Origin: Paraphysomonas bandaiensis
Taxonomy: Eukaryota; Protista; Chrysophyceae
Assembly (NCBI GenBank): GCA_965644295.1
Contig: CBFFRP010000066.1
Coordinates: forward strand, 248,001 to 312,000
Length of the DNA: 64,000 nucleotides
Reading direction: 5' to 3'
Part shown: positions 19,301 to 63,000 of the stretch, piece by piece
Layout: every line of letters starts with the position of its first letter
How positions within the stretch are numbered: position 1 is the stretch's first letter
The notes under the pieces: model-generated
Seen by the model: the letters and a program-made list of their open reading frames with translations, nothing else
What the model was told of the DNA's origin: nothing
The model's database searches: none
Translations under genes and position numbers: made by a program

Positions 19301-22300
19301 TCCTGTCTTGTCTCAGCCGATAAAACGAACATAATTAGACTTTGCAGTGATATCGCTATCGGTGTACTAATAGCTGCTGCAAATAGTGCTACCATGAGCA
19401 CACGCTCGAAATCGTTACTTATCGGTCGAATATAGCAACTTTCTTCCGCAGCATCCCAGTAACACTTACTCTCACTTCTAGACAACGATGACTTCTCTTT
19501 CAAGCACCTTTCCCTGTAAGTGTAGGTTTCACACGAACCATCATCAGGGTCAGCGATGTCATATGTGATGGCCTCAATGAAGAGCATCGTCAGAATGTTC
19601 ATAAGAAGGGACATGATACGGATGGGACGTGAATATGTCGGTGAATAATGACATACCACACCGACCCAGCGGTGATATATCTGTACTTCATTCGACACTT
19701 TCTTCCAGAGTGGAACTCGTCTCAATACCATCGGTAGCGCATCTTCGATCATCTGAACATCTTTATTACTAACGGAGTCTTGAACCTTTGCTTGTGCCAA
19801 CTTTGCCCTGCCAAATTGCGGCTGTACGGTTACATTACTGCTGGACCGAAACACGCGTGCAATTATCGCACCCATTAAGGAAGATGACTTTGTTATTAAC
19901 TGTCGACCGCTTCTACTGCTACTGGGAGTAACTCTATTATGTCGTGATAAAAGTGATATCTTGTGAATGCCTTCTCTTTCTATACTCTTCAAAGAATCCC
20001 TTTCGGAGGCTTTATCACGATTGTCCAAATGATAGGCACCTATAACAGAGAGCATTCCAAATAGTCCTATAAACCCAACCGTGAGTAGAACGCGAATACT
20101 TCCCACAACATCACGACCACTTAAATCATCTGCACTTGTCCATGTATCCACAAACTCAATCAATATAGAGCGGCTCACTGAAGTAAAGTCAACAGACACC
20201 GCACTGCCGTCAGATGACTCTGACTCCTGCATTCGTCGCCGCTGCCTCTCCAAAGGAAGCGTGCATTCACATGTTATATTGGAGCCAGTGTATTCTATCA
20301 TCGTACATGTTACATTATCGTCCCCAATAGCATCACACGTAACTGAGAAATCATGAACAGGGCATGAACGGGATACAGTTCCTGATGACGACCCGTTACA
20401 TGATAGAGTGACAATATCTCCTGCCGGACATTTGTACTCTTGCGATATTGGTTCTCCTTTCTCACAATCTAAATAGAGAGTGTCGATATCACTGCCATTA
20501 GACACATGACTCACGGGAATACTCTTCACATTCTGTAGGACAACAGTCACGTTACAGACATAAGATGAAGAAGAATTGCAGGGGGAGTTGTCAAAGCGAA
20601 GACCAAAAGGAACACTTAAAGCATACGCATCATTACTGAAGTGAGACACTAAGGATTCAACAACAGCAACTTTAAACGCAGTTTGATACGCACTCTGAGG
20701 TATCACTGCAGTCTGAGAGCTTGAGCCTACCAAATCTTCAAGAATAGTTCGAGGTGAGGTGACAGTAGAATTGTCCCGACCATCAAGAGATAAACACGTA
20801 AAGCGAAACAAATTACTCACTACATCAATTGAGTTCTGCCCTTCAACCATATCCAGCAATATGAAGTCGTAATAGGCTTGATATAATACAAAGGATGTTC
20901 TCCCGGCAGATGGGTCGGCATCAAGAACTAAGTCTAGAACAGTGCTCACTGCAGTGATGTCTTCATAAGACAAGCCAAGATCAATGGCATCTGCAATGAA
21001 CTCCACTGCCAAGGATGCTATCAAATCTTTCGTTTTATCCTCTATACCTCGTGGATCGCTGCATATAGAGGCCAAACCTTCTATCCATGAGACAAGAGTA
21101 TCTGCTGAAGGGTCTTCCAAGAGCGAGACACTACGAATCGCTTCCACAAGCTGATGTCGAGTTTGTAAAGTCTGATTAAATTCATCTACGGTGTACTCAC
21201 ACGACTGGCCAGTAAAGCCATCGTAACAAGCGCAGATAGCTTTGCAGTGAACACTCAGCACACTGCAAGTAGTGTACGTGACATTGACATCGTATACAGA
21301 TACGTATTGGCAATACCCAGAATACGAACAATCTCCAGGACAGGCCTTAGGCATGACAACACATACATTGGAATCGCACATTTCCCACTGCGTGACATCA
21401 CAGTCACTGTTTCGGGTGCATGATGTCGGAATCGACGAACCCATTGAAAGGCGTCTTCTCTTGTCATCGCTCAAGTGTAAACAGTACGTATTCGCATGTC
21501 CACTTTCGCCAGCATACCCTTCCAAACACTCTCCACATGTACTCGCAGTAGTCGTGCAGTCGAATCTATTCAGACTTGTACAGTTAGGGGCGGAAGAGCA
21601 ATTCACACTGTTTAGAATTGAGGCAGTGGTTGCAATTGCCTTTTTCATCTCATCAGCATAGCCATTCGAGTTCGCAAGAGCATCTGTGAGGTAGTTTTGT
21701 TTGTCCTCTGCAGAGAGCTCCTGCCTCTTTACCTCCACAGACCGATAGGAAGCAATCTTGGCACCAAGTATGTCAAAAACTTGCACTCTCGTTCTGAGCA
21801 TGAAATCCGCAGAATCTTTCCCTGCCGGCAAGTCGGTAGACACATAAGAGAGCTCCAACCGTGACCGGTGAACAAGATATGCTCCAGATGAGCCTTGATA
21901 AGCGAATTCGTAAGATAACGGAATATCAGAATCTTCCCACTTTGAAGCCAAAAATGTAAATTCCGTGACAAGCATTGTGCCTGTAGGTGGCGAAACAGAG
22001 TAGCTACCCGGATATGGAGGAGAATTAGTCGATATCGTTATGGCAGCAGTCGCAGCGTACCCTGTATCTAGGCTGCATGCAAGTTGGAAGCTAAATTTCG
22101 ACTCCTGGGGTAGAGTGTTAGGTGGTAACACCAGACTCAACGTATACACTTCCCGAGACGACGCTGGAGGTGCTATCGCTTTTGTCACTTCGGACAGTGA
22201 AACTGATTGCAGGTGTATTGACGGATCATCAACAGACCAAGTTGCTGTACCACCTGCGGCAACTTCCACGGTGGCAAGTAATTTGAATTTCTGAGAGGGA

Positions 22301-24869
22301 TTGATTCGAGTCCCGCTTGACGATGAAAGGGTCACTAATGGAGCCAGAGATGGAAGAACAGTGACTACAACTGTTGCAGTAGAAGATCGAAAATCTTTTG
22401 TGTGAACAACCTTCACAGTCAGCTGATGAACGCTATTGATCATCGAATCGCTGTTATTCTGAGGAACAGATACTGACACCTGTGAAGGTGAAATAGCTGA
22501 CATAACCAAGTCACTGACAGCTTTGTATGACGGATAGGTTTGTGCACAGGTAAAGGCAAACGACAATTCCGCACCAATTCCTGTGGCTTCGTTATTATCT
22601 TCATCGTAGCTTCCAGACGCATCAACATATGTTGAGCTATCCGTTCGAACACCTCTACTAGATGATCCAGACACCTTCGCAACAACCAACCCTTTGACTA
22701 CTGTCACAGACACCGAAGCAGAGGAATACTTCAACGAATCTGTGTGCTGAGCTGTCAGGGTTACAGTATATACAGTCCCAACTTCCAGAGTGTAAGGCAA
22801 CAACTTGAACGTCCGCGGGTCACTCGCTTGAGAAACTAAGCTGAGAGGGGCCCCTTGTGCAAATATTTTCCAAGAATATTGTATATTCGCAGTGCTGGTC
22901 GCCCCACCACATACGGAGGTGTAAGCTTGACCAGTGACTGATAGCGGAGAATATCTGTACTGCAACCTCAGCTTCTTAGAATTCAATGATACTACAGGAA
23001 CATTCTCAGATAAAGAAACAACAAAAGAATGCGTTGACCTCCCACAACCACCGATAAAATTACACATAACTACAGAAATACTGTATGCAAATCCTGGATA
23101 CAGTACGGCCCGTGGCACTATCAAGACGCCTGATGCTTCGTAATTGGCGTTTAAATAAGCACTAACCAAGGAAACGTTCTCATGAGTTCCATACACATAA
23201 AATGATACATTCATAAAGGGGCGCCCCCCTGATCCCTTGGATCCAGAAATATCTATAGGTAGTGAGTCACATGGTCCAATCTGAGAAGGTGATATAATCG
23301 ATAGAGCGGGAACAATAGGCGTTTGCGGAGCATGTACTCTGATAGAGGCCAACGAACTAAATTGCCAAGTACTGCAAGTAGGACCGTTGTTCAGGACTTT
23401 ACATTTAGCTCGAATCTTATTAGCTCGTAGTGTAATTACATCAGACACACCAACTACTCCACTCGCCCCAGGAAATATCGACACTCTGGAATCATCGACC
23501 CATAGACACCTCGTATCCTTCTGAATACCGGGAAACGAAAACACATCCATGCAGTTGAAATTATTGGTATATCCTGCACGATTGGTGGGTGCATCAAACA
23601 GCACTAGAATCTTAGTTCCATCTTTAAGAAAGGTCGCAGATTTCAATACTGGAACCGCAGGTTCCGCATCAACAGCAAGCACAGTGATAAAACTTGAGGG
23701 AATATAGGATATGACATAATCACTTGCTGATAATCCTGACATTGTAAATACCAAGGCGTACACACCAGCGTGCTGGCGAATATACGCCACATACTCAACA
23801 GTTGACGAAGTGAAAACCACAGACGATGGGACAAACGGATATACTGTTGAGTTTTGAATGGCAGCCAATGATACATTTAAGTCATGAGGTATTACATCAC
23901 CAGCATCGAGCTTCAATGCAACAGCCGTGTCTTCTCCACTCGAGTACGAGGTCGCAATCAATTCAACATTTAAGGTTCGACAGCATGCCGTTTTTGCCGC
24001 TGATTTGGTCCCACGCATTAGATCATAATCCATTGGAGTGTCTAATGCTGAGTATGTAGCGCAGTACACATCATAATCTGAAGATGCAATTAAACCGTCA
24101 ATCATAAATGACACAGTCGTTGATGTAATCGATATCAAGTCATTGTGAAGAAGAAGAGTACTAACAGTAGAAGGAACAAATGAATCCGACGTTAGGTACG
24201 CTGCGCAAACGAGAGACCCTTCCGGTACATCAACAGCTACTGTGGCTGTAATCGAGCTAATTGTGCTGGATACAGTTATGCTCAATATATCCGATGCCAC
24301 TGATAACTCGGTAAAAGCTATGTGCAATATGTTTAATATCGTAGGATAAAGGGGTTTCTCAACCTCATCACATGGACTATCGTATATGATCGCAGATGGT
24401 TTAACAGTTGATGGCGTGCATGGAGAGCTGGTACAGTTCGCACACAGGAACGCCGAAGTCATGCTCCCACAACGGCCCACCATCCAACTCGTATCATGAC
24501 ATTTGAAAGACATGGAAGAAGAAACGGTTGCCTTGGATACTGACAGAAGTGTGGCCACAATATCAGCAGCAGTTGCGCTATCGTTACAAGTCACAGTCAC
24601 TAGTTTGAGGTCAGCTGAAAAGTCTGTTGTCGATATCATACTGAGAGAAGAAGCTGCATAGGTAATCAATGCTGTCGCAATATTGTCATTGACGAAAACA
24701 TCCCATTCGTCACATGTACCGTATCCACGTTCACTCCTGACTACTAAGCTCGCAAAAGTACTTCTCGTTCCGAGGTTAATGCCATTGATATATGTATCAT
24801 ATTTCTCTTTCCACAGTGTCATGAATGATGTGGACGGAGACAGAGAAGGTACAAACGTAGGACTCATGG

Positions 24870-27435
24870 AAAGTGTTGGTGGCAAAGTTGGATAGTGAGT
24901 AACTGTAGGAACTGGCGCGTATGTTGGTCGGTAAGTTGGAGATGACGTAGGTGCTTTAGTAGGAATACTAGTAGGTAAAAATGTGGGAAACCTTGTAGGT
25001 AATATTGTAGGTTTGGATGATGGCACTGAGGTGGGATAAGAGCTGGGATCACTAGTGGGGATGTATGTGGGTTGCCCAGTCGGCTCCCCACTTGGCTGCC
25101 AACTCGGAACTGCGGTTGGCATAGTAGATGGTATACTAGAAGGTTGACTACTAGGCGAGGCACTTGGGAACGATGAAGGCTGCCCAGATGGGTTCTCAGA
25201 AGGCTGGCCACTAGGCTGTCCAGAAGGTTGGCCAGTGGGTACTCTTGTGGGTTCTCCTGAGGGTTTCCCAGAAGGTCGGCTAGTAGGCCCATCAGTAGGT
25301 TCGCCTGTAGGTTGGCCCGTGGGTTGCCATGTAGGTTCCCCTGAAGGTTGGCCGGAAGGCTCACCCGTGGGTTGTCCTGTAGGTTCCCCTGACGGCTGAC
25401 CAGACGGTTCACCTGTGGGATGGCCAGTAGGTTCCCCGGAAGGCTGAGCACTAGGCTGGCCTGTAGGTTGGCTGGAAGGTTCAGCTGTTGGTTGGCCAGT
25501 GGGCTCTCGGGAAGGCTGAGCACTAGGCTCGCCTGTAGGTTGTCCTGTAGGTTCCCCTGAAGGTTGGCCGGAAGGTTCCCCGGAAGGCTGCGCACTAGGT
25601 TGACTTGTAGGTTGGCTAGAAGGTTCAGCTGTGGGTTGGCCAGTGGGCTCTCGGGAAGGCTGAGCACTAGGTTCGCCTGTAGGTTGGCCCGTGGGTTGCC
25701 ATGTAGGTTCCCCTGAAGGTTGGCCGGAAGGCTCACCCGTGGGTTGTCCTGTAGGTTCCCCTGACGGCTGACCAGACGGTTCACCTGTGGGATGGCCAGT
25801 AGGTTCCCCGGAAGGCTGAGCACTAGGCTGGCCTGTAGGTTGGCTGGAAGGTTCAGCTGTTGGTTGGCCAGTGGGCTCTCGGGAAGGCTGAGCACTAGGC
25901 TCGCCTGTAGGTTGTCCTGTAGGTTCCCCTGAAGGTTGGCCGGAAGGTTCCCCGGAAGGCTGCGCACTAGGTTGACTTGTAGGTTGGCTAGAAGGTTCAG
26001 CTGTGGGTTGGCCAGTGGGCTCTCGGGAAGGCTGAGCACTAGGTTCGCCTGTAGGTTGGCCCGTGGGTTGCCCTGTAGGTTCCCCTGACGGCTGACCAGA
26101 CGGTTCACCTGTAGGATGGCCAGTGGGTTCTCCGGAAGGCTGAGCACTAGGTTCGCCTGTAGGTTGGCCCGTGGGTTGTCCTGTAGGTTCCCCTGAAGGT
26201 TGACCGGAAGGTTCACCAGTGGGTTGTCCTGTAGGTTCCCCGGAAGGCTGACCAGACGGTTCACCTGTGGGATGGCCAGTAGGTTCCCCGGAAGGCTGAG
26301 CACTAGGTTGGCCTGTAGGTTGGCTGGAAGGTTCAGCTGTTGGTTGGCCAGTAGGTTCTCCGGAAGGCTGAGCGCTAGGTTCGCCAGTCGGTTGGCCCGT
26401 GGGATGGCCAGTAGGCTCCCCTGTGGGTTGGCCAGTAGGTTCCCCGGAAGGCTGAGCACTAGGTTCGCCTGTAGGTTGGCCCGTGGGTTGTCCTGTAGGT
26501 TCCCCTGAAGGTTGGCCAGTGGGTTCTCCGGACGGCTGGCCGGAAGGTTCACCCGTGGGTTGTCCTGTAGGTTCCCCGGAGGGCTGACCAGACGGTTCAC
26601 CTGTAGGATGGCCAGTGGGTTCTCCGGAAGGCTGAGCACTAGGTTCGCCTGTAGGTTGGCCCGTGGGTTGTCCTGTAGGTTCCCCTGAAGGTTGGCCAGT
26701 GGGTTCTCCGGACGGCTGGCCGGAAGGTTCACCCGTGGGTTGTCCTGTAGGTTCCCCTGACGGCTGACCAGACGGTTCACCTGTAGGATGGCCAGTGGGT
26801 TCTCCGGAAGGCTGAGCACTAGGTTCGCCTGTAGGTTGGCCCGTGGGTTGTCCTGTAGGTTCCCCTGAAGGTTGCCCAGTAGGTTCTCCGGAAGGCTCAC
26901 CCGTGGGTTGTCCTGTAGGTTCCCCTGAAGGTTGACCGGAAGGTTCACCCGTGGGTTGTCCTGTAGGTTCCCCGGAGGGCTGACCAGACGGTTCACCTGT
27001 AGGATGGCCAGTGGGTTCTCCGGAAGGCTGAGCACTAGGTTCGCCTGTAGGTTGGCCCGTGGGTTGTCCTGTAGGTTCCCCTGAAGGTCGGCCGGAAGGT
27101 TCACCTGTGGGTTCCCCTGACGGCTGGGCACTAGGTTGGCTAGAAGGTTGCCCTGTCGGTTTTCCAGATGGTACTGCTGAAGGCTCGTTAGAAGGTTCAC
27201 CTGTAGGTTGTCCTGTAGGTTCCCCTGAAGGCTGACCAGACGGTTCATTAGTAGGTTGGCCAGATGGTTGTCCTGTTGGTTCACCAGATGGCTGTCCAGT
27301 AGGGATTCCAGATGGCTCACCTGTGGGTTGACATGACGGCTGTTCTGTAGGACCAGATGGTTGCGCACTAGGTTGTCCTGTTGGTTGACATGACGGTTGT
27401 CCAGAAGGGAAAGAAGTCGGTGCAGATGTGGGTAT
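24870..27435 (-). repeat. Expanded PT-type stalk repeats of gene 2 (~2.6 kb)
   Basis: About 200 tetrapeptide P-S/T-x-Q/E units with larger internal duplications. Confidence 0.92.
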
Positions 27436-30319: not shown

Positions 30320-30868
30320 TGTATGTATTGTATGTATGTATGTATGTATGTATGTATGTATGTATGTATGTATGTATGTATGTATGTATGTATGTATGTA
30401 TGTATGTATGTATGTATGTATGTATGTATGTATGTATGTATGTATGTATGTATGTATGTATGTATGTATGTATGTATGTATGTATGTATGTATGTATGTA
30501 TGTAGGTATGTATGTAGGTATGTATGTATGTATGTATGTATGTATGTATGTATGTATGTATGTATGTATGTATGTATGTATGTATGTATGTATGTATGTA
30601 TGTATGTATGTATGTATGTATGTATGTATGTATGTATGTATGTATGTATGTATGTATGTATGTATGTATGTATGTATGTATGTATGTATGTATGTATGTA
30701 TGTATGTATGTATGTATGTATGTATGTATGTATGTATGTATGTATGTATGTATGTATGTATGTATGTATGTATGTATGTATGTATGTATGTATGTATGTA
30801 TATCGGATATGGGTTTGTATGTATGTATGTAGGTAGGTAGGTAGGTATGTATGTATGTATGTATGTAT
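30320..30868. repeat. (TATG)n microsatellite, ~550 bp, with TAGG variants
   Basis: Directly visible; source of the spurious MYVC ORFs. Confidence 0.98.
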
Positions 30869-30979
30869 GGGTATATGGACAGCGGTGGTATGTATCTACA
30901 CCATTACTGTTAAGTGGTCTACCTCTCTAGGTCTCTTATCTCCTCTGCTCTCTCACCTCTCTCATATCTGATCATCTCG

Positions 30980-33555
30980 ATGAAGAAAGCCACTGAACGA
31001 GATAAACTTTTAGGTCCATATACCATATATATATATATATATCTGTATGTATATGTATGTATGTATCATCATATATTTATAGTACTGTATATATGTATAT
31101 AACACTGTGTATATATAACATATGTACATCTATAGGCCCTAGTAGTGGGGGACTAACCAAAAACCAACACTACATGTCTGCTTCCGCTTTCCTCACTGTA
31201 GCCGAAGAGATCAATCGACAAAGACAAACTACAGCCCATCTATCTCGTAGTGCATCTATAGGCATAGATATGACCCCCTCTGCACTCAACCCCATACGAG
31301 AGGTATCATACGTTATATATAGCTGTTATACATAGCTGTTATATATGGTTGTTATATGTATATGTTATATGTGTATATGTTATATAGCTGTTATATAATG
31401 CTGTTATATGTTATATATAGTTGTTGTATGTGTATATAGTGATATCCCCTCACGAACTGTCTCACTTGTTATACGTATGGTATATAGGTATTCATTTTGT
31501 TAAATGTATAATGTAGTTTTGAACCCCATACGGGAACCTCATACGTATAAAAACATCTTGCTATACCCTCATTTTTAATATAGGGACAAAGGAGGGCATT
31601 GTATGGGACATTGCCGTTTGTTTCTGCATTTGGAATGACCAAACGTGAGAATGAGATTCGGAAAGTCTTATCGTCAGTTAGTCACAAGTCACTCACTGAT
31701 CTTGCAAAGGAGTCTGAGGTATATACATATTATCACGTCATTTGGGGGGATTAGAACTTAATTTTGTATGTGTAGCATGCAGAAATGTTGGAGGAAGTTG
31801 ACGTCGATGAGGTATTACAATTATTTATTTTTGTCTTGAGTGTCTTCCTGTACGCCCGGTTGATTTATGTTTCTCATGGGATGCACTAGATTATTGTGAC
31901 CTTCCCACTGGTAATGGCAGTGTTAGTTGCTATTATTTCCCAGTTCCTTGTGGGATACAATACAGCGGTTATGAATTCACCGGAAGGGGTAGTTTTTCCG
32001 GGACACTCAACGGCAGAGTGGTCTTTTGCAGTCTCAGCTTTTGCCATAGGTGAGTACAATTGTATATCGTGGTGTATGGTAGTGACTATGAAAACCCTGG
32101 AATTTGTTACATCTGACTATAGGTGGTCCCCTGGGAGCAATTGCTGGGGGTCTTTTGGCCAACAAAAGAGGACGAAGGTGGTATTGTGTACTTTTAGCAA
32201 TTGTTTCTGAAGTTGTTGTAGAGGGGCTATGCTGGTAAACAGTTGGATATTCCTCTTCGGAGGCCTTATATTGACTCTGGCACCAAGTATTCTATGGATC
32301 ATACCCGCTAGACTTATTATCGGTTTCGCCTCCGGCTTGTCGTCTGTTGTGGTGCCCGTGTATTTAGGTACTTGTCGCGGAATTGTGTATTGTATAATAT
32401 GTTGCCATCATCTGTAATTTCCTGCCAGTAACCTGATTTTGATCGTGCGTGCAGGTGAAATTGCACCCCCTACGCTTCGTGGAACTCTTGGTACATGCAC
32501 TCAGTTCGCAATGGTGACAGGCATACTTGTCAGTGCTCTGATGGCTTTTCCTTTGGCAACTGCAACCCTATGGCGGTGGCTTTTCGCTGTGACGCCCATA
32601 TTAGCTGGCTCTCAGCTTTTGGTTTCTCCTTTCCTCTTGGAATCTCCTAGATGGCTCTTGAATCATGATGAAAATTCGAGTGTCGCTAGGTACTACTTAT
32701 TCTGTATAATTGTCAGATTAATGTATTTACTACAGGGTAGTGATAAAGGCTCTACGTGGATTCCGTTCTGACGAAGAAATTGAGAACGAAGTCCAAAATT
32801 TCATGTATGCATCGTCGAAACACAAAACTTCCCGTTCTAGTGCCCACTCCTCTGGGGCCATGTGGGACCTATTGCACGCTAAGGATGTGCGCATACTGGT
32901 TGTCTCTGTCATTGTGCTCCAAATGGCTCAACAACTATGCGGTATAAACGCTGTGTTTTACTATTCCTCGATGTTTTTTGATGGCGTTCTAAGCAACCCT
33001 CTACAAGGTACTGCCCTAGTATCGTTTATTAATGTTGTAGCTACATACGCTGCTCTTAAGTTAATGGACGACACCAATCGCCGCACTCTCCTTCTTTGGT
33101 CCGCTGGTGGGATGTTGATTTCAACAATATTTATTATAGCAGCCTTACTGCACGTAGTTCCAAATATTGTCGCCTTGGTCGCAGTGATGGCTTTTGTTTC
33201 ATTCTTCGAGATCGGCCTGGGTCCTATTCCTTGGTTAATTGTTGCAGAGATGTTTGATGCAAAGTATGTCGCCACTGCTATGTCAATGGCATGCATTGTG
33301 AACTGGGCCTGTAATTTTCTTGTCGGCTTGTTATTTCCTTTCATGCAGCAATCATTAGGGGCATATAGTTTTGGACCGTTTGGTGTGGTTCTTGTTGCAA
33401 CATATTTCTTTACCTATCTACAGTTGCCTGAAACCCACGGTAGATCGGTGGAGGAAATTCAACGACTGGTAGGTTCTGGAGATGAAGAAGTGAGACGAGC
33501 GATTGAGGTGATCGAAGGAATAGACGATTATGACTTTGGGGATGATGCCCTGTAA
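30980..33555 (+). CDS. MFS sugar porter (GLUT/SLC2-like hexose transporter), about 9 exons
   Basis: Motifs [72 protein letters not shown] introns link the pieces in frame (e.g. exons 30980-31013, 31136-31302, 31584-31718); the first donor (GTCCAT) is weak so the 5' end is less sure. Confidence 0.9.
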
Positions 33556-48429: not shown

Positions 48430-48643
48430 AAAAGTGGAGGTTTTCTGTAAAAAAGCCTACATTCGTCCACTGTAACGAGAGTATCCACCATATTAACGAC
48501 AAAAGAAACTATAGGTTTATATAAAAGTGGAGGTTTTCTGTAAAAAAGCCTACATTCGTCCACTGTAACGAGAGTATCCACCATATTAACCACAAAAGAA
48601 ACTATAGGTTTATATAAAAGTGGAGGTTTTCTGTAAAAAAGCC
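48430..48643. repeat. 93-bp tandem repeat, ~2.3 copies
   Basis: AAAAGTGGAGGTTTTCTGTAAAAAAGCC starts at 48430, 48523 and 48616 with near-identical intervening sequence. Confidence 0.92.
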
Positions 48644-51207: not shown

Positions 51208-51294
51208 ATGAATCCATCCATTCGCTGTGTATGTCTGCTTATCAGTTTATTTAACTCTCGTATCGTAACACTCACAGTTGCCTCAGTTGTCTCT

Positions 51295-54200
51295 CAAGAG
51301 GCAGCGCTGTGTGACTTCATTCAGGCGACTGATGTTACCTCCATATGGTCTGAGTGGACCTGTGCGGATGTGGGGAATAAGTGCAGTTTCACTGGAGTCA
51401 CTTGTTCAGGATCGAACATAACCAGAGTGGACTTATATGATGGTGGGATATCAGGATCTCTCCCGCCATCATTCGGTAATATGACCTCACTGACATATTT
51501 GAATATTGGTGGCAACTCTCTCACCGGTACTTTGCCCTCATCACTGGGTCAGCTGACTTCTCTTAGTTATCTCTATCTATATTCCAATTCCTTAACAGGT
51601 ACTCTCCCCTCATCATTGGGTCAGATGACTTATCTTGGTGTTCTCGCTCTATATTACAATTCCTTGACGGGTCCTCTCCCCTCATCATTGAGTCAGATAA
51701 CTTCTATTCGTTATCTCCATCTATATCGAAATTCCATAACGGGTCCTCTCCCCTCATCTATCGGTGATATGACTGCATTGACATATTTGAATATTGGTGA
51801 CAACTCTCTCATCGGTACTCTCCCCTCATCATTGGGTCAGATGACTTCTCTTGTTAGTCTCTATCTATATGGCAATGCCATTTCGGGTCCTGTCCCCGAC
51901 TCTTTTTCCAGTCTCACCAAATTACAACTTCTAAGGGGTGAGGACAATATGTTCACAGGTGTCTACCCCTACGAACTGTGCACAATGACTCAATTAACAA
52001 CATTCTACCTCACACAAACCAGTTACCATGAGTGCTTGAGACCCACATCTGCACCGACTTCATTCCCTTCAGTGCAACCGACAATTAACCTGGAAGAGTC
52101 AGCGCTGTGTGACTTTATTCAGGCGACTGATGTTACCTCCATACGGTCTGAGTGGACCTGTGCGGATGTGGGGAATAAGTGCAGTTTCAGTGGAGTCACT
52201 TGTTCAGGATCGCACATTACCTCAGTGGACTTATCTGATGATGGGATATCAGGATCTCTCCCCTCATCTATCGGTGATATGACTGCATTGACATCTTTGA
52301 GTATTGGTTCCAACTCTCTCAACGGTAGTCTGCCCTCATCATTGGGTCAGCTGACTTCTCTTAGAGTTCTCGCCCTACATTACAATTCCTTAACGGGTCA
52401 TCTCCCTTCATCTATCGTTGATATGACTGCATTGACATATTTGAGTATTGGTTACAACTCTCTCAGCGGTACACTGCCCTCGTCATTGGGTCAACTGACT
52501 TCTCTTCGTGCTCTCCATCTATATTACAATTCCTTAACGGGTCCTCTCCTGTCATCTATCGGTGATATGACTGCATTGACATATTTGCATATTGGATCCA
52601 ACTCTCTCAGCGGTACGCTGCCCTTATCATTGTGTCAGCTGACTTCTCTTCGTTATCTCGGTCTACATGTCAATTCCATAACGTATACTCTCCCAACCTC
52701 TATCGGTGATATGACCGCACTGACACATTTGGATATTCGCTCCAACTCTCTGACAGGTACTCTTCCCTCATCATTGGGTCAGCTGACCTCTCTTGTTCAT
52801 CTCAGTCTACATGACAATTCCTTAACGGGCCCTCTCCACTCATCCATTGGTGATATGACAGCATTGACAAATTTGCATATTAGTTCCAACTCTCTCTACG
52901 GTACTCTTCCCTCATCATTGGGTCAGCTGACTTCTCTTCGTTATCTCCATCTATATGGCAATTCCTTAGCGGGTCCTCTCCCGTCGTCAATCGGTGATAT
53001 GACTGCATTGACATATTTGAATATTGGTTCCAACTTTTTCAACGGCACTCTCCCGTCATCATTGGGTCAGCTGACTTCTCTTAGTTATATCTATCTATAT
53101 TACAATTTCATAACAGGTCCCCTCCCCTCATCATTGGGTCAGATGACTTCTCTTGTTGAGCTCTATCTACATGACAATTCCTTAACGGGTTTTCTCCCTG
53201 ACTCTTTTTCCAGTCTAACCAAATTACAACTTCTGAGTGGTGAGGGCAATATGTTTACCCGTGTCTACCCTTCCGATCTATGCACAATGACTCAATTAAC
53301 AACATTCTTTCTTACACAAAACACTTACCATGAATGCTTGAGGCCCACATCCGCACCGACTTCTTTCCCTTCAGGGCAACCGACAATTAACCTGGAAGAG
53401 TCAGCGCTGTGTGACTTTATTCAGGCGACTGATGTTACCTCCAAGCGGACTGAATGGACTTGTGGGAATGTGGGTAATAAATGCAATTTCAGTGGAGTCA
53501 CCTGTTCAGGGTCGCACATTACCTCAGTGGACTTATATGATGATGGGATATCAGGATCTCTCCCCTCATCTATCGGTGATATGACTTCACTTGTTGATCT
53601 CCGTCTACATTCCAATTCCTTAACAGGATCTATCCCGCCCTCTATCGGTGATATGACTGCATTGACACTTTTGAGTATTCGCTCCAACTCTTTCATCGGT
53701 ACTCTGCCCTCATCATTGGGTCGGCTGACTTCTCTTAGTTTTCTCGGCCTACATTACAATTCCTTGACGGGTCCTCTCCCCCAATCATTGGGTCAGATGA
53801 CTTCTCTTACTTATCTCGGCTTACATTTCAATTCCATAACGGGTCCTCTCCTGTCATCTATCGGTGATATGACTGCACTGGTATATTTGGTTTTTGAATC
53901 CAACTCTCTCAACGGTACTCTGCCATCATCATTAGGTCAATTGACTTCCCTTCGTCATCTCCATCTATTTGGTAATTCCATAGCGGGTCATCTCCCCTCA
54001 TCTATCGGTGATATGACTGCATTGACACAATTGAATATTGGTGGCAACTCTTTCATCGGTACTCTGCCCTCATCATTGGGTCGGCTGACTTCTCTTAGTT
54101 ATCTCCATGTACATTACAATTCCTTGACGGGCCCTCTGCCCCCATCATTGGGTCAGATGACTTCTCTTACTTATCTCGGTCTACATTTCAATTCCATAAC

Positions 54201-57200
54201 GGGTCCTCTTCCCTCATCTATCGGTGATATGACTGCATTGGCATATTTGATTTTTGAATCCAACTCTCTCAACGGTACCTTGCCCTCATCACTAGGTCAG
54301 CTGACTTCTCTTAGTTCTCTCTATCTAAATTCCAATTCCATAACGGGCCCTCTCCCGTCATCTTACGGTGATATGACTGCATTGACATATTTGGATATTG
54401 GTGGCAACTCTCTCAACGGTACTCTCCCCTCATCATTGGGTCAGCTGATTTCTCTTCGTGAACTCTATCTACATGACAATTCCTTAATGGGTCCTCTCCC
54501 AGACTCTTTTTCCAGTCTCACCAAATTACGACTTCTAAGGGGTGAGAGCAATATGTTCACAGGTGCCTACCCTTACGAGCTGTGCACAATGACTCAATTA
54601 ACAACGTTCTACCTCACACAAAACAGTCATCATGAATGCTTGAGACCCACATCTGCACCGATTCCCTTCCCTTCAGTGCAACCGACAATTTACCTGGAAG
54701 AGTCAGCGCTGTGTGATTTCATTCAGGCGACTGATGTTACCTCCGTGCGTTCTGAATGGACCTGTGCGGATGTGGGTAATAAATGCAGTTTCAGTGGAGT
54801 CACTTGTTCAGGATCGCACATAACCAGAGTGGACTTATCTGATGATGGCATATCAGGATCTCTGTCGTCATCTATCGGTGATATGACTGCATTGACATAT
54901 TTGAATATTCACTCCAACTTTCTCATCGGTAGTCTGCCCTCATCATTGGGTCAGCTGACTTCTCTTGTTGATCTCAGGCTAGCTGTCAATTCCATAACGG
55001 GTCCTCTCCCCTCATCTATTGGTGATATGACAGCATTGACATATTTGAATATTGGTTCCAACTCTCTCAACGGTGCTCTGCCATCATCATTGGGTCAACT
55101 GTCTTCTCTTAATTATCTCTATCTACGTGTCAATTCCATAACGGGTCCTCTTCCGTCATCTATCGTTGATATGACTGCATTGACATATTTGAATATTGGT
55201 GACAACTCTCTCAGTGGTACTCTGTCCTCATCATTGGGTCAACTGTCTTCTCTTAATTATCTCTATCTATATGGCAATTCCTTAATGGGGACTTTCCCCT
55301 CATCATTGGGTCAGCTGACTTCTCTTCGTGAACTCTATCTACATTCCAATTCCATAACGGGTCCTCTCCCCTCATCTATCGGTGATATGACTGCATTGAC
55401 ATATTTGAATATTCGCTCCAACTCTCTCAACGGTACTCTCCCCTCATCATTGGGTCAGCTGACTTCTCTTCGTTTTATCAATGTACATGACAATTTCTTG
55501 AGGGGCCCTCTCCCTGACTCTATTTCCAGTCTCACCAAATTACAACTTTTAAGGGTTGATGGCAATATGTTCACACGTGTTTACCCTTACGAGCTGTGCA
55601 CAATGACTCAATTAACAACATTCTACCTCACACAAACCAGTTACAATGAATGCTTGAGACCCACATCTGCACCGACTCCTTTCCCTTCAGGACAACCGAC
55701 AATTAACCTGGAAGAGTCAGCGCTGTGTGACTTCATTCAGGCGACTGATGTTACCTCCGTACGTTCTGAATGGACCTGTGCGGATGTGGGTAATAAATGC
55801 AGTTTCAGTGGAGTCACCTGTTCAGGATCAGACATAACCAGAGTGAGCTTATATGATGATGGGATATCAGGATCTCTGTCGTCATCTATCGGTGATATGA
55901 CTGCATTGACATATTTGAGTATTGGTTCCAACTCTCTCAACGGTGCTCTGCCATCATCATTGGGTCAGATGACCGCATTGACATATCTCCATATTGCTGA
56001 CAACTCTCTCGCCGGTACTCTGCCGTTATCATTGGGTCAGATGACTTCACTTGTTGAGCTCCGTCTATATGGCAATTTCTTGACGGGTCCTCTCCCGTCA
56101 TCTATCGGTGATATGACTGCATTGACATATCTGCATATTGCTGACAACTCTCTCAACGGTACTCTGCCCTCATCATTGGGTCAGCTGACTTCACTTGTTC
56201 ATCTCAGTCTATATGGCAATTCCTTAATTGGTACTCTCCCTTCATCTATCGGTGATATGACCGCATTGACATATTTGAATATTGGTTCCAACTCTCTCAC
56301 CGGTACTCTGCCTTCATCATTGGCTCAGCTGACTTCTCTTCGAGCTCTCCGTCTATATGGCAATTCCTTAACGGGTCCTCTCCTGTCATCTATCGGTAGT
56401 GAATGTCTGATTATTTAGCAATAGGCGTTGAGACCTTGCATCAATTAGTGGCTAGAAGAATGCTAGTCATACTAGTTAGACCACTACCCGTAATCATCTA
56501 TCGGTAATATGACTGCATTGACATATTTAAATATTGATGGCAACTCCTTCATCGGTACTCTCCCCTCATCATTGGGTCAGATGACTTCTCTTGGTCATCT
56601 CTATCTCACTGGCAATTCCATATCAGGATCTCTACCCTCATCCATAGGTGATATGACTACATTGACATATTTGCATATTGGTTCCAACTCTCTCAACGGT
56701 GCTCTGCCATCATCTTTGGGTCAGCTGACTTCTATTCGTTATCTCCATCTATATGGAAATTCCATAACGGGTCCTCTCCCCTCATCTATCGGTGATATGA
56801 CTGCATTGACATATTTGAATATTGGTGGCAACTCTCTCATCGGTACTATTCCCTCATCATTGGGTCAGATGACTTCTCTTGTTAGTCTCTATCTATATGG
56901 CAATGCCATTTCGGGTCCTGTCCCCGACTCTTTTTCCAGTCTCACCAAATTACAACTTTTAAGGGGTGAGGGCAATATGTTTACAGGTGTCTACCCCTAC
57001 GAGCTGTGCACAATGACTCAATTAACAACATTCTACCTCACACAAACCAGTTACAATGAATGCTTGAGACCCACATCTGCACCGACTTCATTCCCTTCAG
57101 TGCAACCGACAATTAACCTGGAAGAGTCAGCGCTGTGTGACTTTATTCAGGCGACTGATGTTACCTCCATACGGTCTGAGTGGACCTGTGCGGATGTGGG

Positions 57201-60200
57201 GAATAAGTGCAGTTTCACTGGAGTCACTTGTTCAGGATCCAACATAACCAGAGTGGACTTATATGGTGATGGGATATCAGGATCTCTCCCCTCATCTATC
57301 GGTGACATGACCGCATTGACATATTTGAGTGTTGGTTCCAACTCACTCATCGGTACTCTGCCCTCATCACTGGGCCAGATGACTTCTCTTAGTGTTCTCG
57401 CTCTATATTACAATTCCTTGACGGGTCCTCTCCCCTCATCATTGAGTCAGATAACTTCTATTCGTTATCTCCATCTATATGGAAATTCCATAACGGGTCC
57501 TCTCCCCTCATCTATCGGTGGTATGACTGCATTGACATATTTGGATATTGGTGGCAACTCTCTCATCGGTACTATTCCCTCATCATTGGGTCAGATGACT
57601 TCTCTTGTTAGTCTCTATCTATATGGCAATGCCATTTCGGGTCCTGTCCCCGGCTCTTTTTCCAGTCTCACCAAATTACAACTTCTAAGGGGTGAGGGCA
57701 ATATGTTCACAGGTGTCTACCCTTACGAGCTGTGCACAATGACTCAATTAACAACATTCTACCTCACACAAAACACTTACCATGAATGCTTGAGGCCCAC
57801 ATCTGCACCGACTTCATTCCCTTCAGGGCAACCGACAATTAACCTGGAAGAGTCAGCGCTATGCGACTTCATTGCGGCGACGAATATTTCCTCCAAACGG
57901 ACAGAGTGGACCTGCGGGAATGTGGGGAATAAATGCATCTTCAGTGGAGTCACCTGTTCAGTATCGAACATTATCAGGATGGACTTATATAATTTTGATT
58001 TTGCAGGATCACTCCCGTCCTCTGTTGGTGATATGACGGGATTGACATATTTAGAAATTGGACGCAACTCTCTCATCGGTACTCTCCCCTCATCATTGGG
58101 TCAGCTGCTTTCTCTTAGTTATCTCTATATATATGACAATTCCATAACGGGTTCTCTCCCGTCCTCTATTGGTGAAATGACTACATTGATAACTTTGAGT
58201 ATTGGCTACAACTCTCTCATCGGTACTCTGCCATTATCATTGTGTCAACTGACTTCTCTTAGTAAACTCCGTCTAAATGACAATTCCATAACGGGTCCTC
58301 TCCCGTCGTCAATCGGTGATATGACTGCATTGACATATTTGGATATTAGTTCCAACTCTCTCTACGGTACTCTTCCCTCATCATTGGGTCAGATGACTTC
58401 TCTTGGTTATCTCCATCTATATGGCAATTCCGTGACGGGTCCTCTCCCGTCATCTATCGGTAATATGACTGCATTGACATATTTGGATATTGGTTCCAAC
58501 TCTCTCATCGGTACCCTCCCCTCGTCATTGGGTCAACTGACTTCTCTTAGTTATCTCTATCTATATGACAATTCCTTGACGGGTCCTCTCCCGTCCTCAA
58601 TCGGTGATATGACTGCATTGACATATTTGGATATTAGTTCCAACTCTCTCTACGGTACTCTTCCCTCATCATTGGGTCAGATGACTTCTCTTGGTTATCT
58701 CCATCTATATGGCAATTCCGTGACGGGTCCTCTCCCGTCATCTATCGGTAATATGACTGCATTGACATATTTGGATATTGGTTCCAACTCTCTCATCGGT
58801 ACCCTCCCCTCGTCATTGGGTCAACTGACTTCTCTTAGTTATCTCTATCTATATGACAATTCCTTGACGGGTCCTCTCCCGTCCTCAATCGGTGATATGA
58901 CTGCATTGACATATTTGGATATTAGTTCCAACTCTCTCAACGGTGCTCTGCCCTCATCATTGGGTCAGCTGACTTCTCTTGTTGAGCTCTATCTCTCTGG
59001 CAATTCCATAACAGGCTCTCTCCCTGACTATTTTTCCAGTCTAAGCAAATTACAAGTTCTAAGGGTTGATGGCAATATGTTCACACGTGTCTACCCTTAC
59101 GAGCTGTGCACAATGACTCAGTTAACAACATTCTACCTCACACAAAACAGTCATCATGAATGCTTGAGACCCACATCTGCACCGACTCCTTTCCCTTCAG
59201 GGCAACCGACAATTAACCTGGAAGAGTCAGCGCTGTGTGACTTCATTCAGGCGACTGATGTTACCTCCGTACGTTCTGAATGGACCTGTGCGGATGTGGG
59301 TAATAAATGCAGTTTCAGTGGAGTCACCTGTTCAGGATCAGACATAACCAGAGTGAGCTTATATGATGATGGGATATCAGGATCTCTGTCGTCATCTATC
59401 GGTGATATGACCGCATTGACATATTTGAGTGTTGGGTCCAACTCTCTAATCGGTAGTCTGCCCTCATCATTGGGTCAGATGACCGCATTGACATATCTCC
59501 ATATTGCTGACAACTCTCTCGCCGGTACTCTGCCGTTATCATTGGGTCAGCTGACTTCACTTGTTGAGCTCCGTCTATATGGCAATTTCTTGACGGGTCC
59601 TCTCCCGTCATCTATCGGTGATATGACTGCATTGACATATCTGCATATTGCTGACAACTCTCTCAACGGTACTCTGCCCTCATCATTGGGTCAGCTGACT
59701 TCACTTGTTCATCTCAGTCTATATGGCAATTCCTTAATTGGTACTCTCCCTTCATCTATCGGTGATATGACCGCATTGACATATTTGAATATTGGTTCCA
59801 ACTCTCTCACCGGTACTCTGCCTTCATCATTGGCTCAGCTGACTTCTCTTCGAGCTCTCCGTCTATATGGCAATTCCTTAACGGGTCCTCTCCTGTCATC
59901 TATCGGTAATATGACTGCATTGACATATTTAAATATTGATGGCAACTCCTTCATCGGTACTCTCCCCTCATCATTGGGTCAGATGACTTCTCTTGGTCAT
60001 CTCTATCTCACTGGCAATTCCATATCAGGATCTCTACCCTCATCCATAGGTGATATGACTACATTGACATATTTGCATATTGGTTCCAACTCTCTCAACG
60101 GTGCTCTGCCATCATCTTTGGGTCAGCTGACTTCTATTCGTTATCTCCATCTATATGGAAATTCCATAACGGGTCCTCTCCCCTCATCTATCGGTGATAT

Positions 60201-61320
60201 GACTGCATTGACATATTTGAATATTGGTGGCAACTCTCTCATCGGTACTATTCCCTCATCATTGGGTCAGATGACTTCTCTTGTTAGTCTCTATCTATAT
60301 GGCAATGCCATTTCGGGTCCTGTCCCCGACTCTTTTTCCAGTCTCACCAAATTACAACTTTTAAGGGGTGAGGGCAATATGTTTACAGGTGTCTACCCCT
60401 ACGAGCTGTGCACAATGACTCAATTAACAACATTCTACCTCACACAAACCAGTTACAATGAATGCTTGAGACCCACATCTGCACCGACTTCATTCCCTTC
60501 AGTGCAACCGACAATTAACCTGGAAGAGTCAGCGCTGTGTGACTTTATTCAGGCGACTGATGTTACCTCCGTACGGTCTGAGTGGACCTGTGCGGATGTG
60601 GGGAATAAATGCAGTTTCAGTGGAGTCACTTGTTCAGGATCGCACATAACCAGAGTGAGCTTACCTAATGATGGGATATCAGGATCTCTGTCGTCATCTA
60701 TTGGTGATATGACTGCATTGACATCTTTGAGTATTCGCTCCAACTCTCTCAACGGAACTCTCCCCTCATCATTGGGTCAGCTGACTTCTCTTCGTTATCT
60801 CCATGTATATGACAATTCCATAACGGGCCCTCTCCCAACCTCTATCGGTGATATGACAGCATTGACATATTTGGATATTCGCTCCAACTCTCTCATCGGC
60901 ACTCTTCCCTCATCATTGGGTCAGCTGACTTCTCTTGTTGAGCTCTATCTACGTGACAATTCTATAACCGGCCTTCTTCCGTCATCTATCGGTAATATGA
61001 CTGCATTGAGGTATTTGAGTATTATTTCCAACTCTCTCATCGGTACTATTCCCTCATCATTTGGCCACCTGACTTCTCTTGTCGGTCTCTATCTGTCACA
61101 CAATTCCATAACAGGCCCTCTCCCCGACTCTTTTTCCAGTCTAACTAATTTACAACTTCTGAGTGGTGAGAGCAATATGTTTACAGGTGTCTACCCCTAC
61201 GAGCTGTGCACAATGACTCAATTAACAACATTCTACCTCACACAAACCAGTTACCATGAGTGCTTGAGACCCACATCTGCACCGACTTCATTCCCTTCAG
61301 TACAGCCATCAGGTGAACCT
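51295..61320 (+). repeat. Nine tandem cap-LRRn-cap modules starting at 51295, 52093, 53395, 54697, 55711, 57121, 57847, 59221, 60523
   Basis: Each begins (Q/E)E(A/S)ALCDFI and ends LCTMTQLTTF.LTQ...ECLRPTSAP; lengths 798, 1302, 1302, 1014, 1410, 726, 1374, 1302, ~798 bp. Confidence 0.93.
56399..56493. mobile_element. 95-bp insertion with 13-bp TSD TCATCTATCGGTA (probable truncated non-LTR/SINE-like insert)
   Basis: TSD at 56386-56398 and 56494-56506; the sister module has the empty site CTGTCATCTATCGGTAATATG at ~59893-59913; module 5 is exactly 108 bp longer than module 8. Confidence 0.88.
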
Positions 61321-63000
61321 ACAGGACAGCCATCAGTTAAACCCACTGGGCAACCGTCTGACCAACCTAGCCGACAGCCTTCAGGTCAGCCATCTGGTAA
61401 ACCAACAGGACAACCATCATATCAACCCACAGGTGAGCCATCTGGGATTCCTACAGGACAGCCATCTCGTGAACCAACAGCACAACCATCTGGGCAACCT
61501 ACAGGACAGCCATCAGGTCATCCGTCATGTCAACCCACTGGACAGCCGTCTGGCCAACCTAGCAGACAGCCATCTGGGATCCCTACTGGACAGCCATCTC
61601 GTGAACCAACAGGACAACCATCTGGGCAACCTACAGGACAGCCATCAGGTCAGCCGTCATATCAACCCACTGGACAACCTTCTGGCCAACCTAGCAGACA
61701 GCCTTCAGGTCAGCCATCTGGTAAACCAACAGGACAACCATCAGGTCAGCCATCTAGTGAACCAACAGGACAGCCATCATATCAACCCACAGGTGAGCCA
61801 TCTGGGATTCCTACAGGACAGCCATCTCGTGAACCAACAGGTGGGCCATCTGGGACCCCTACTGGACAGCCATCTGGTGAACCTACAGGACAGCCGTCAT
61901 GTCAACCTACAGGACAGCCATCTGGTCTACCCACAGGTGGGCCATCTGGGACCCCTACAGGACAGCCATCTGGTGAACCTACAGGACAACCATCTGGGCA
62001 ACCTACAGGACAGCCATCAGGTCAGCCGTCATATCAACCCACTGGACAACCTTCTGGCCAACCTAGCAGACAGCCTTCAGGTCAGCCATCTGGTAAACCA
62101 ACAGGACAACCATCAGGTCAGCCATCTAGTGAACCAACTGGACAGCCATCATATCAACCCACAGGTGAGCCATCTGGGATTCCTACAGGACAGCCATCTC
62201 GTGAACCAACAGCACAACCATCTGGGCAACCTACAGGACAGCCATCAGGTCATCCGTCATGTCAACCCACTGGACAGCCGTCTGGCCAACCTAGCAGACA
62301 GCCATCTGGGATCCCTACTGGACAGCCAACAGGGGAGCCATCTCGGATCCCTACAGGACAGCCATCTGGGATCCCAACAGGACAGCCATCTGGCCAATCT
62401 AGTGAACGACCAACAGGACAACCATTAGGTCAGCCATCTAGTGAACCAACAGGACAGCCATCTGGGAGCCCCACAGGTGAGCTATCTGGTATCCCTACAG
62501 GACAGCCTTCTGGTGAACCAACAGCACAACCATCTGGGCAACCTACAGGACAGCCATCAGGTCAGCCGTCATGTCAACCCACTGGACAGCCGTCTGGCCA
62601 ACCTAGCAGACAGCCATCTGGGATCCCTACTGGACAGCCATCTGGTGAACCAACAGGACAGCCATCAGGGGAGCCATCTGGTGAACCTACAGGAAAACTA
62701 TTAGGTCAGCCATCTGGTGAACCTACAGGACAACCATTAGGTCAGCCATCTAGTGAACCAACAGGACAGCCATCAGGTGAACCTGCAGGACATCCATTAG
62801 GTGAGCCATCTGGGATCTCTACAGAACAGCCATCAGGTCAACCCACAGGTGAGCCATCTGGGATCCCCACTGGACAGCCATCTGGGAGCCCCACAGGTGA
62901 GCCATCTGGTATCCCAACAGGTCAGCCATCATGTCAACCTACAGGACAGACACCAGGGCTATCTACTGGACAGCCGTCTGGGCAACAACATTCGACTTTT
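61300..63000 (+). repeat. PT-type stalk repeats of gene 4
   Basis: PTGQPSG tetrapeptide repeats with larger internal duplications. Confidence 0.9.

What the first reader, a model, noticed from the sequence alone, without database searches (positions are those of the whole stretch)
51295..61320. Beads-on-a-string ectodomain: nine independently capped LRR domains (~101 LRRs) in one gene
Seen: the whole cap-LRRn-cap unit plus a short PTSAPTSFPSVQPT linker is repeated nine times with 7, 14, 14, 10, 14, 6, 15, 14 and 7 LRRs; every module length is 6 modulo 72 except the one carrying the insertion. Genes 1-3 have a single module. Inference: either a multivalent, multispecific receptor or a reservoir of donor cassettes for conversion into the intact paralogs.
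Basis: partly seen in the sequence, partly recalled or inferred. Interest (0 to 1): 0.75.

Follow-up and report, generated by a model that had tools for sequence, protein, structure and literature searches.

The report
Nine-bead LRR receptor, recently interrupted
One gene of a marine protist (likely a golden alga or a relative) strings nine leucine-rich-repeat domains, each predicted to fold with its own caps, in front of a long stalk, likely as a many-handed surface receptor; this copy is cut in the fifth domain by a short high-copy repeat, and strings of capped domains also occur in other proteins.

Summary
Observation confirmed: nine cap-LRR-cap modules (7, 14, 14, 10, 14, 6, 15, 14, 7 repeats; 101) lie in one frame behind a predicted signal peptide and before a 558-residue Pro/Thr stalk. 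The '6 modulo 72' rule is only 294 fixed bases plus 72 per repeat. The gene belongs to a four-member local family of LRR-stalk-REJ multi-pass membrane proteins; the best named relative of the REJ region is chrysophyte. Modules are diverged mosaics (85 of 101 repeats distinct), with purifying selection on caps and scaffold and excess amino-acid change on the concave face. Public contigs support the modules and roughly their copy numbers but do not span the array. Module 5 carries a 108-base insertion with six stops: a fragment of a very high-copy dispersed repeat with a 10-13-base target duplication. So this copy does not encode the whole protein unless cryptic splicing rescues it. The donor-cassette idea found no support: shared tracts (99 bases at most) are what ancestry alone gives. 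Tandem capped LRR domains are precedented (Slit; metagenomic proteins with 2 to over 20 modules). Verdict: real, a new variant of a known kind, moderate interest.

The parts
51208..51303 (+). Start codon and predicted signal peptide (MNPSIRCVCLLISLF...), shared by all four family genes
   Evidence: similarity among the four genes begins just before the ATG; hydrophobic segment
51304..52101 (+). Module 1: N-cap, 7 LRRs, C-cap, linker
52102..53403 (+). Module 2: 14 LRRs
53404..54705 (+). Module 3: 14 LRRs
54706..55719 (+). Module 4: 10 LRRs
55720..57129 (+). Module 5: 14 LRRs plus the 108-base insertion; otherwise 9 differences in 1302 bases from module 8
56386..56395 (.). Left copy of the target-site duplication (10 bases; 13 if the element's first three bases are counted)
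56396..56493 (.). Fragment of a very high-copy dispersed repeat; its left edge is the element's end, other copies run on beyond its right edge; six in-frame stops
56494..56503 (.). Right copy of the target-site duplication
57130..57855 (+). Module 6: 6 LRRs; folded alone as a capped solenoid with a disordered linker
57856..59229 (+). Module 7: 15 LRRs, most diverged N-cap, exact internal 288-base duplication
59230..60531 (+). Module 8: 14 LRRs, uninterrupted near-twin of module 5
60532..61263 (+). Module 9: 7 LRRs and C-cap
61264..62932 (+). Pro/Thr/Ser/Gly/Gln stalk (Pfam PT), about 558 residues
62980..64000 (+). Post-stalk ectodomain, 40 differences in 1020 bases from gene 3; runs off the window before the REJ domain

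Best explanation
This is a surface-protein gene whose single capped LRR domain was multiplied to nine, likely by unequal crossing-over, giving a predicted multivalent receptor that would present nine variable binding faces on a long stalk; in this copy a repeat insertion in module 5 puts stops in the frame. Shown: nine modules in one frame, signal-peptide-like start, stalk, membership of the local LRR-stalk-REJ family, mosaic modules, selection pattern, the insertion and its stops. Inferred: one founding recombination joined the start of the stalk to a second N-cap (all eight junctions share the INLEES-type linker that single-module genes lack); misaligned crossing-over and conversion in 72-base register then changed bead number and repeat number and shuffled repeats between beads; each bead folds alone, binds through its concave face, and several beads raise avidity or widen the range of ligands (prey, pathogen or partner surfaces); the REJ and membrane part anchors it and may signal. 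The insertion is recent and would give a truncated secreted fragment or a degraded message.
For: Module map. One module folds as a fully capped solenoid, pLDDT 90, linker disordered, closest to plant receptor ectodomains FLS2 and PEPR1 (TM 0.81-0.82); the N-cap aligns with that of GSO1. Caps: pN 0.065 and 0.061 against pS 0.23 and 0.18; scaffold positions pN 0.085; concave-face positions pN 0.32 and 0.50 against pS 0.18 and 0.20 in the two repeat types (32 and 26 distinct units); by minimal-change counts 22 N:3 S against 22:26 (p 0.0004) and 30:6 against 27:22 (p 0.01). No stop or frameshift in 10.1 kb except in the insertion. Mosaic signs: the last repeats of modules 1, 5, 6, 8 differ by 0-3 bases per repeat; exact 288-base duplication in module 7; about 1.6 kb near-identical at 3510-base spacing. 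Reads: in run X1 pieces unique in the array have depth 30-37, a piece shared by modules 5 and 8 has 68, one shared by modules 1, 5, 8 has 99; run X3, another sample, has exact pieces of modules 2, 3, 6, 7 and an in-frame C-cap-to-N-cap joint with a linker four residues longer at depth 393. Insertion recent: modules 5 and 8 are identical for 357 bases before and 675 after it.
Against: No ligand, expression or localisation data; the REJ and membrane part of this gene lies beyond the window and is inferred from gene 3. No contig spans the array, and contig depth is a rough guide only. No listed contig bridges the insertion's left junction, while the empty site is seen in X1 (module 8 alone would give that), so the insertion is not confirmed by reads. 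The excess on the concave face is modest by minimal-change counts (1.95 and 2.36 replacement changes per site against 1.42 and 1.51 silent), and a codon model gave omega 3.98 for one repeat type but 1.000, probably unoptimised, for the other; recombination can distort all these figures. Gene 2 is also broken (2-base deletion), so the family loses members readily.
Confidence: 0.6

Rival explanations
1. Runaway repeat expansion in a dispensable gene: the beads multiplied by drift, the selection signal is inherited from single-module ancestors, and the gene is now a young pseudogene with no special multivalent role.
For: The copy is interrupted; gene 2 is broken too; tandem duplication keeps the frame by itself; N-caps of modules 1, 2, 6 differ from those of genes 1-3 by only 2-7 of 114 bases, so much constraint may predate the array.
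Against: Modules 3 and 7 have N-caps 12-25 bases away from all others with both cysteines and the tryptophan kept; a junction with another linker length exists at high depth in a second sample; two-module proteins with the same cap type occur in other organisms (P0036, P0038).
Confidence: 0.15
2. The interrupted copy still works because the insertion is spliced out: the element's first bases supply a GT donor at 56396 and an AG at 56647 removes 252 bases, the insertion plus exactly two repeats in register (an AG at 56626 would also keep the frame).
For: The donor and both acceptors are in frame; donors of introns read by eye in neighbouring genes are loose after GT(A/G); the acceptor at 56647 has a pyrimidine-rich run.
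Against: Neighbouring introns are mostly 50-85 bases and AT-rich; nearer AGs inside the insertion leave a stop or shift the frame; the same acceptor lies unused in module 8; in-frame GT-AG pairs are common in a 72-base repeat (26 listed).
Confidence: 0.1
3. A silent reservoir of donor cassettes copied into the single-module paralogs by gene conversion, as in variable lymphocyte receptors or antigenic variation (recalled).
For: Many diverged repeats in one place (85 distinct of 101); 26% of gene 3's LRR domain is covered by exact tracts of 50 bases or more from the array, against 6-7% from genes 1 or 2; the copy is interrupted.
Against: Gene 3 is the array's closest paralog (96%), and its non-repeated region shows identical runs of 141, 121 and 108 bases, longer than the 99-base best LRR tract; none of the 101 repeats is identical to a repeat of genes 1-3 (nearest differ by 2 bases or more); the gene keeps signal peptide, stalk and downstream ectodomain.
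Confidence: 0.08
4. Assembly artefact: some modules were duplicated or joined from different loci or haplotypes.
For: Modules 5 and 8 are near-identical; no laid contig spans the array; the insertion junction is not bridged by a listed contig.
Against: Seven modules are clearly distinct, which expansion of one unit cannot give; depth steps of about 1:2:3 fit the assembled copy numbers; the flanks of modules 5 and 8 (modules 4/7 and 6/9) differ in length and sequence; junction-type sequence is in the contigs of X1 and X3.
Confidence: 0.07

Closest known systems
REJ-domain / polycystin-1-like (PKD1, SpREJ) membrane proteins; Ectocarpus Esi0130_0068
   Same: Large modular ectodomain, REJ domain (Pfam PF02010 in genes 1 and 3), several membrane segments; a brown-algal REJ protein under positive selection is described (PMC4700764, passages read).
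   Different: No Pfam GPS, PLAT or channel match; about seven membrane segments, not eleven; plant-type LRR beads and a PT stalk at the front.
Slit proteins
   Same: Consecutive LRR domains, each with its own cysteine caps (four in Slit; PMC2693880, passages read).
   Different: Nine beads of 6-15 repeats, plant-type 24-residue repeats and caps, recent and mosaic, on a membrane-anchored REJ body; Slit is secreted, has four conserved domains and other cap chemistry.
Plant LRR receptor kinase ectodomains (FLS2, PEPR1, GSO1, MIK2)
   Same: Repeat consensus, N-cap and fold of each bead.
   Different: Those matched have one capped solenoid and a kinase; here nine solenoids and no kinase.
Metagenomic proteins with tandem capped plant-type LRR modules (P0036, P0038, P0046, P0115, P0070, P0037)
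   Same: P0036 and P0038 carry two modules with the same cap type joined by PT linkers; P0046, P0113, P0115, P0070 have 4-5 capped blocks; P0037 has 20 C-cap-to-N-cap junctions.
   Different: None of the 7 scanned has a REJ domain; P0037 has other caps and no PT linker; all are unstudied predictions.
Shuffled LRR repertoires of Ectocarpus ROCO genes and Tetrahymena 90-bp-exon genes
   Same: Fast birth and death, repeat shuffling by recombination, diversifying selection (PMC3341825 abstract and one section; PMC6564038 abstract).
   Different: There each repeat is an exon; here the array has no introns, whole capped domains are multiplied, and the protein is extracellular.

Membership tests
Polycystin-1 / REJ family | REJ domain | tested here: met
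   PF02010 at E 5e-42 in gene 3 and 6e-43 in gene 1; for this gene it lies beyond the window and is inferred from 96% identity of the post-stalk region to gene 3
Polycystin-1 / REJ family | GPS cleavage motif before the first membrane segment | tested here: not met
   No Pfam GPS match up to E 5 in the corresponding regions of genes 1 and 3; a Cys-rich stretch is there by eye, so a diverged form is not excluded
Polycystin-1 / REJ family | PLAT/LH2 domain after the first membrane segment | tested here: not met
   No match in genes 1 and 3
Polycystin-1 / REJ family | Eleven membrane segments with cation-channel homology | tested here: not met
   About seven hydrophobic segments in gene 1, no channel family matched; exons were scanned separately
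Plant-specific LRR ectodomain | 24-residue consensus LxxLxLxxNxLxGxLPxxLGxLxx | tested here: met
   Column counts over 69 distinct internal repeats
Plant-specific LRR ectodomain | Helix plus Cys-pair N-cap on each domain, and a C-cap | tested here: met
   All nine carry both caps; module 6 folds with caps at pLDDT about 90-98; alignment to the GSO1 cap; Pfam LRRNT_2 is weak for a single cap (E 0.11 for module 1, none for module 7)
Slit family | Several consecutive separately capped LRR domains | tested here: met
   Nine modules; four in Slit
Slit family | Slit-type caps with two disulphides each, and EGF/laminin-G/cystine-knot tail (tail recalled) | tested here: not met
   C-cap has two cysteines only; no such Pfam domains. 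It works like Slit's layout at most, it is not a Slit
Donor-cassette systems (VLR, antigenic variation; features recalled) | Tracts in expressed paralogs identical to donor cassettes beyond shared ancestry | tested here: not met
   Best tract 99 bases, equal to the ancestry expectation; 3 of an unknown number of paralogs tested
Donor-cassette systems (VLR, antigenic variation; features recalled) | Donors are silent and lack start, signal and anchor | tested here: inconclusive
   Start, signal peptide and stalk are present; expression could not be tested
Donor-cassette systems (VLR, antigenic variation; features recalled) | Directional or somatic rearrangement within a clone | not testable with these tools
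   Needs raw long reads from a clone; only contigs were served

The most novel reading that the evidence does not exclude
A phagotrophic-type protist keeps an intron-free, recombination-driven repertoire of LRR-REJ receptors in which bead number, repeat number and binding-face residues differ between genes and strains, a protist counterpart of an innate immune or prey-recognition repertoire; the interrupted allele is rescued because the inserted repeat brings its own splice donor and is removed together with exactly two repeats.
Probability: 0.12. Interest if true: 0.72.

Novelty: new variant of a known kind. Interest (0 to 1): 0.42.

Why it matters
How free-living protists recognise prey, parasites or mates at the cell surface is largely open. 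A young, fast-changing family that joins plant-type LRR binding domains to a REJ membrane body, and varies both the length of one solenoid (15-47 repeats) and the number of solenoids (1-9), gives concrete candidates whose single beads can be expressed and tested. The searches found no description of such a family in chrysophytes. The layout itself is not new, and this copy is interrupted.

Tried and rejected
No whole genome is held, so the family could not be surveyed. Word-index protein search with the cap-linker-cap junction among proteins of 954-3037 residues: 0 of 38 candidates passed. Exact junction pattern and the element's end in JGI metagenome contigs: 0 each; element's end and junction alignment in viral contigs: 0, and 0 of 28 stretches confirmed. 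Rfam on 56300-56600: 3 matches, all far below gathering score. The insertion does not fold better than shuffles (z 0.55) and has no second copy in the window. A precise intron (Introner-like) reading of the insertion was rejected: no register within the duplication gives GT-AG. No RNA holder listed; run X10 could not be read; this says nothing on expression. The tool for contigs encoding a given protein was closed, so the gene context of P0036, P0038 and the REJ hits is unseen. Mantel tests of cap distances were flat within modules (rho 0.09, p 0.36) and across junctions (rho 0.12, p 0.32): compatible with mosaicism, but low in power. A two-module fold without alignment gave two solenoids with low-confidence caps and linker (pLDDT 64). 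The atlas gave only generic LRR clusters. '6 modulo 72' as a special constraint was rejected as arithmetic. Earlier findings: none by place or sequence, one unrelated stalk protein by words. Paper searches gave nothing on this architecture; supplements were not read, and those of the chrysophyte preprint (domain tables) may bear on the claim that the family is undescribed.
Full report
What is there. The window is eukaryotic, with short GT-AG introns. It holds four related giant genes: two on the minus strand (starts 13978, 29632) and two on the plus strand (36774, 51208). Genes 1 and 3 show the plan: predicted signal peptide, capped LRR domain, Pro/Thr stalk (Pfam PT), REJ domain, about seven membrane segments. 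The best of 18 hits to gene 3's post-stalk region is a protein of the chrysophyte Pedospumella encystans at 31% identity, and the runs that hold the DNA include seawater metagenomes (X7 was laid). A marine chrysophyte-like host is therefore likely, not shown.

The observation. Gene 4 has nine N-caps and nine C-caps in one frame with 7, 14, 14, 10, 14, 6, 15, 14, 7 complete repeats, 101 in all. Spacings are 294 + 72n bases, hence '6 mod 72'. The eight linkers are 23 residues and share an ending (INLEES type) absent from the single-module genes, which points to one founding fusion of the stalk's first residues to a second N-cap, then amplification (inference). Module 6 with an alignment of 23 sequences folds as a capped solenoid at pLDDT 90 with a disordered linker; its closest solved folds are plant receptor ectodomains. 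So 'independently capped beads' is a fair prediction.

Is it real? 85 of 101 repeats are distinct in DNA; N-caps differ by 0-25 of 114 bases. Only modules 5 and 8 are near-twins (9 differences in 1302 bases). In the contigs of run X1 (a quarter read; it may be the window's source) three pieces unique in the array have depth 30-37, a piece shared by modules 5 and 8 has 68, a piece shared by modules 1, 5 and 8 has 99; one module-5 piece has 50 and one gapped piece 4.7. Run X3, a second sample, has exact pieces of modules 2, 3, 6, 7, a module 5/8 piece at depth 81 against 33-64 for the others, and an in-frame C-cap-to-N-cap joint with four more linker residues at depth 393, so multi-module junctions exist in more than one form. 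In X5 (another organism label) pieces of modules 4 and 5 match with 0-3 differences, and a loose end after a C-cap runs straight into a stalk, as single-module paralogs would give. Contig depth is a rough measure, and no piece spans the array, so number and order await long reads.

How it was built. Repeats alternate between two types and are shared across modules: the last three to four repeats of modules 1, 5, 6 and 8 differ by 0-3 bases each, module 7 has an exact 288-base duplication, and the end of module 4 through the start of module 6 matches the end of module 7 through the start of module 9 over about 1.6 kb. This is the mark of unequal crossing-over and conversion in 72-base register (inference).

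Selection. I took the 83 internal repeats (first and last of each module left out), 69 distinct, and sorted 32 to type A and 26 to type B; 11 mixed ones were kept apart. At the five concave-face positions of LxxLxLxxN, chosen from the consensus, pN is 0.32 and 0.50 against overall pS 0.18 and 0.20; elsewhere pN is 0.085; caps have pN/pS near 0.3. Counting minimal changes per column, exposed against other columns gives 22:3 against 22:26 (p 0.0004) and 30:6 against 27:22 (p 0.01), but the excess over silent change per site is only about 1.4-1.6-fold. A codon model gave omega 0.46 and 0.37 for scaffold columns, 3.98 for type B exposed and 1.000 for type A exposed, the last probably not optimised. 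Purifying selection on the scaffold is firm; diversifying selection on the binding face is likely.

The break. Module 5 has 108 extra bases: 56396-56493 plus a 10-base target duplication (13 with microhomology), with six in-frame stops. The insert is a piece of a very high-copy dispersed repeat: summed depth peaks at 218,000 in X1, 117,000 in X3 and about 2,200 in X8 and X7; many contigs end at 56396-56400 with unrelated, AT-rich flanks; copies run on with one shared sequence beyond 56493; its first 33 bases are shared with other variants. A ragged end, a truncated other end and a long duplication fit a truncated non-LTR retroposon inserted antisense (recalled features; class not established). 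No listed contig bridges its left junction here; the empty site is present in X1, as module 8 would give, and X3 has no cover at 56385-56388, so the insertion is neither confirmed nor shown to be polymorphic. Read as it stands, the frame stops after four and a half beads. A cryptic intron from the element's own GT at 56396 to an AG at 56647 would remove it with exactly two repeats; this is a possibility only.

Donor idea. Longest exact tracts between the modules and genes 1, 2, 3 are 72, 67 and 99 bases; among genes 1-3 they are 82-98. Gene 3 and gene 4 have runs of 141, 121 and 108 identical bases in their non-repeated region, and shuffling those 40 differences gives a median longest run of 99. 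No repeat of the array is identical to one in genes 1-3. Within the window there is thus no sign of copying beyond ancestry. Paralogs elsewhere could not be examined.

Comparison. A search of 1.84 billion representatives with the 103-residue junction gave 105 hits. By a strict cap pattern 14 of 105 have two or more capped LRR blocks and 4 have four or five. P0036 and P0038 have two modules with the same cap type and PT linkers, next to NHL or FG-GAP repeats, so this bead is a mobile unit in relatives. P0037 has 20 cap-to-cap junctions of another type. None of the 18 REJ hits has LRRs by my pattern, though several are N-terminally incomplete. In print, Slit has four separately capped LRR domains (PMC2693880, passages); REJ, GPS and PLAT define the PKD1/SpREJ family (PMC1934368, passages); a brown-algal REJ protein is under positive selection (PMC4700764, passages); shuffled LRR repertoires are known in Ectocarpus and Tetrahymena but rest on one exon per repeat (PMC3341825, abstract and section 11; PMC6564038, abstract); a Slit2-type LRR receptor promotes bacterial binding and phagocytosis in amphioxus (PMC10199209, abstract). 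A chrysophyte genomics preprint has no occurrence of LRR, leucine or REJ in its main text (10.64898/2026.10.27.762293, term search; supplements unseen); searches found no paper on an LRR-REJ family in this group.

Verdict. A real feature, correctly described. It is best read as a multivalent LRR ectodomain of a REJ-type surface receptor, grown by unequal recombination and lately interrupted in this copy (0.6). It is REJ-bearing but fails the GPS, PLAT and channel tests, so it is not filed as a polycystin-1. The layout is precedented; nine plant-type beads on a REJ body in a protist family with a fast-changing binding face was not found described. New variant of a known kind; interest 0.42.

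Noticed in passing
window 56396-56493: Unclassified dispersed repeat at very high depth in 4 of 4 runs laid (three labels); its terminal 33 bases are shared by several variants with different continuations, and one contig suggests a tandem copy of the end. No Rfam, viral or metagenome match.
   Followed up: partly
window about 27510, minus strand (gene 2): Two-base deletion in the C-cap shifts the frame, so gene 2 is also broken or misassembled.
   Followed up: partly
window 13882-10270, minus strand (gene 1): One solenoid of 47 repeats with a 216/288-base higher-order repeat that includes unusually acidic repeats (FDIDENTFDS type); the family lengthens single beads as well as multiplying them.
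   Followed up: no
window 603-10183 and 16253-25818: Genes 1 and 2 are a tandem duplication, 96% identical over 9.6 kb, with different LRR domains and stalks of 282 and 789 residues.
   Followed up: partly
window 36253-34145 (minus) and about 31580-33552 (plus): A trehalase with a C-terminal hydrophobic segment lies tail to tail with a sugar transporter between the two receptor pairs (Pfam PF01204, PF00083).
   Followed up: partly
window 30320-30869 and 48430-48643: A (TGTA)n microsatellite of about 136 copies, and a 93-base unit in 2.3 copies at 99% identity.
   Followed up: no
protein P0037 (ENA metagenome, 2901 aa): Twenty cap-to-cap junctions between short plant-type LRR modules with no linker: a longer bead string of separate origin, unnamed.
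   Followed up: partly
window 51266, runs X1 and X3: Contigs carry other sequence ending in a pyrimidine-rich stretch just before 51266, inside the predicted signal peptide, where the window has a possible acceptor; other family members may enter the first cap from another start or exon.
   Followed up: no
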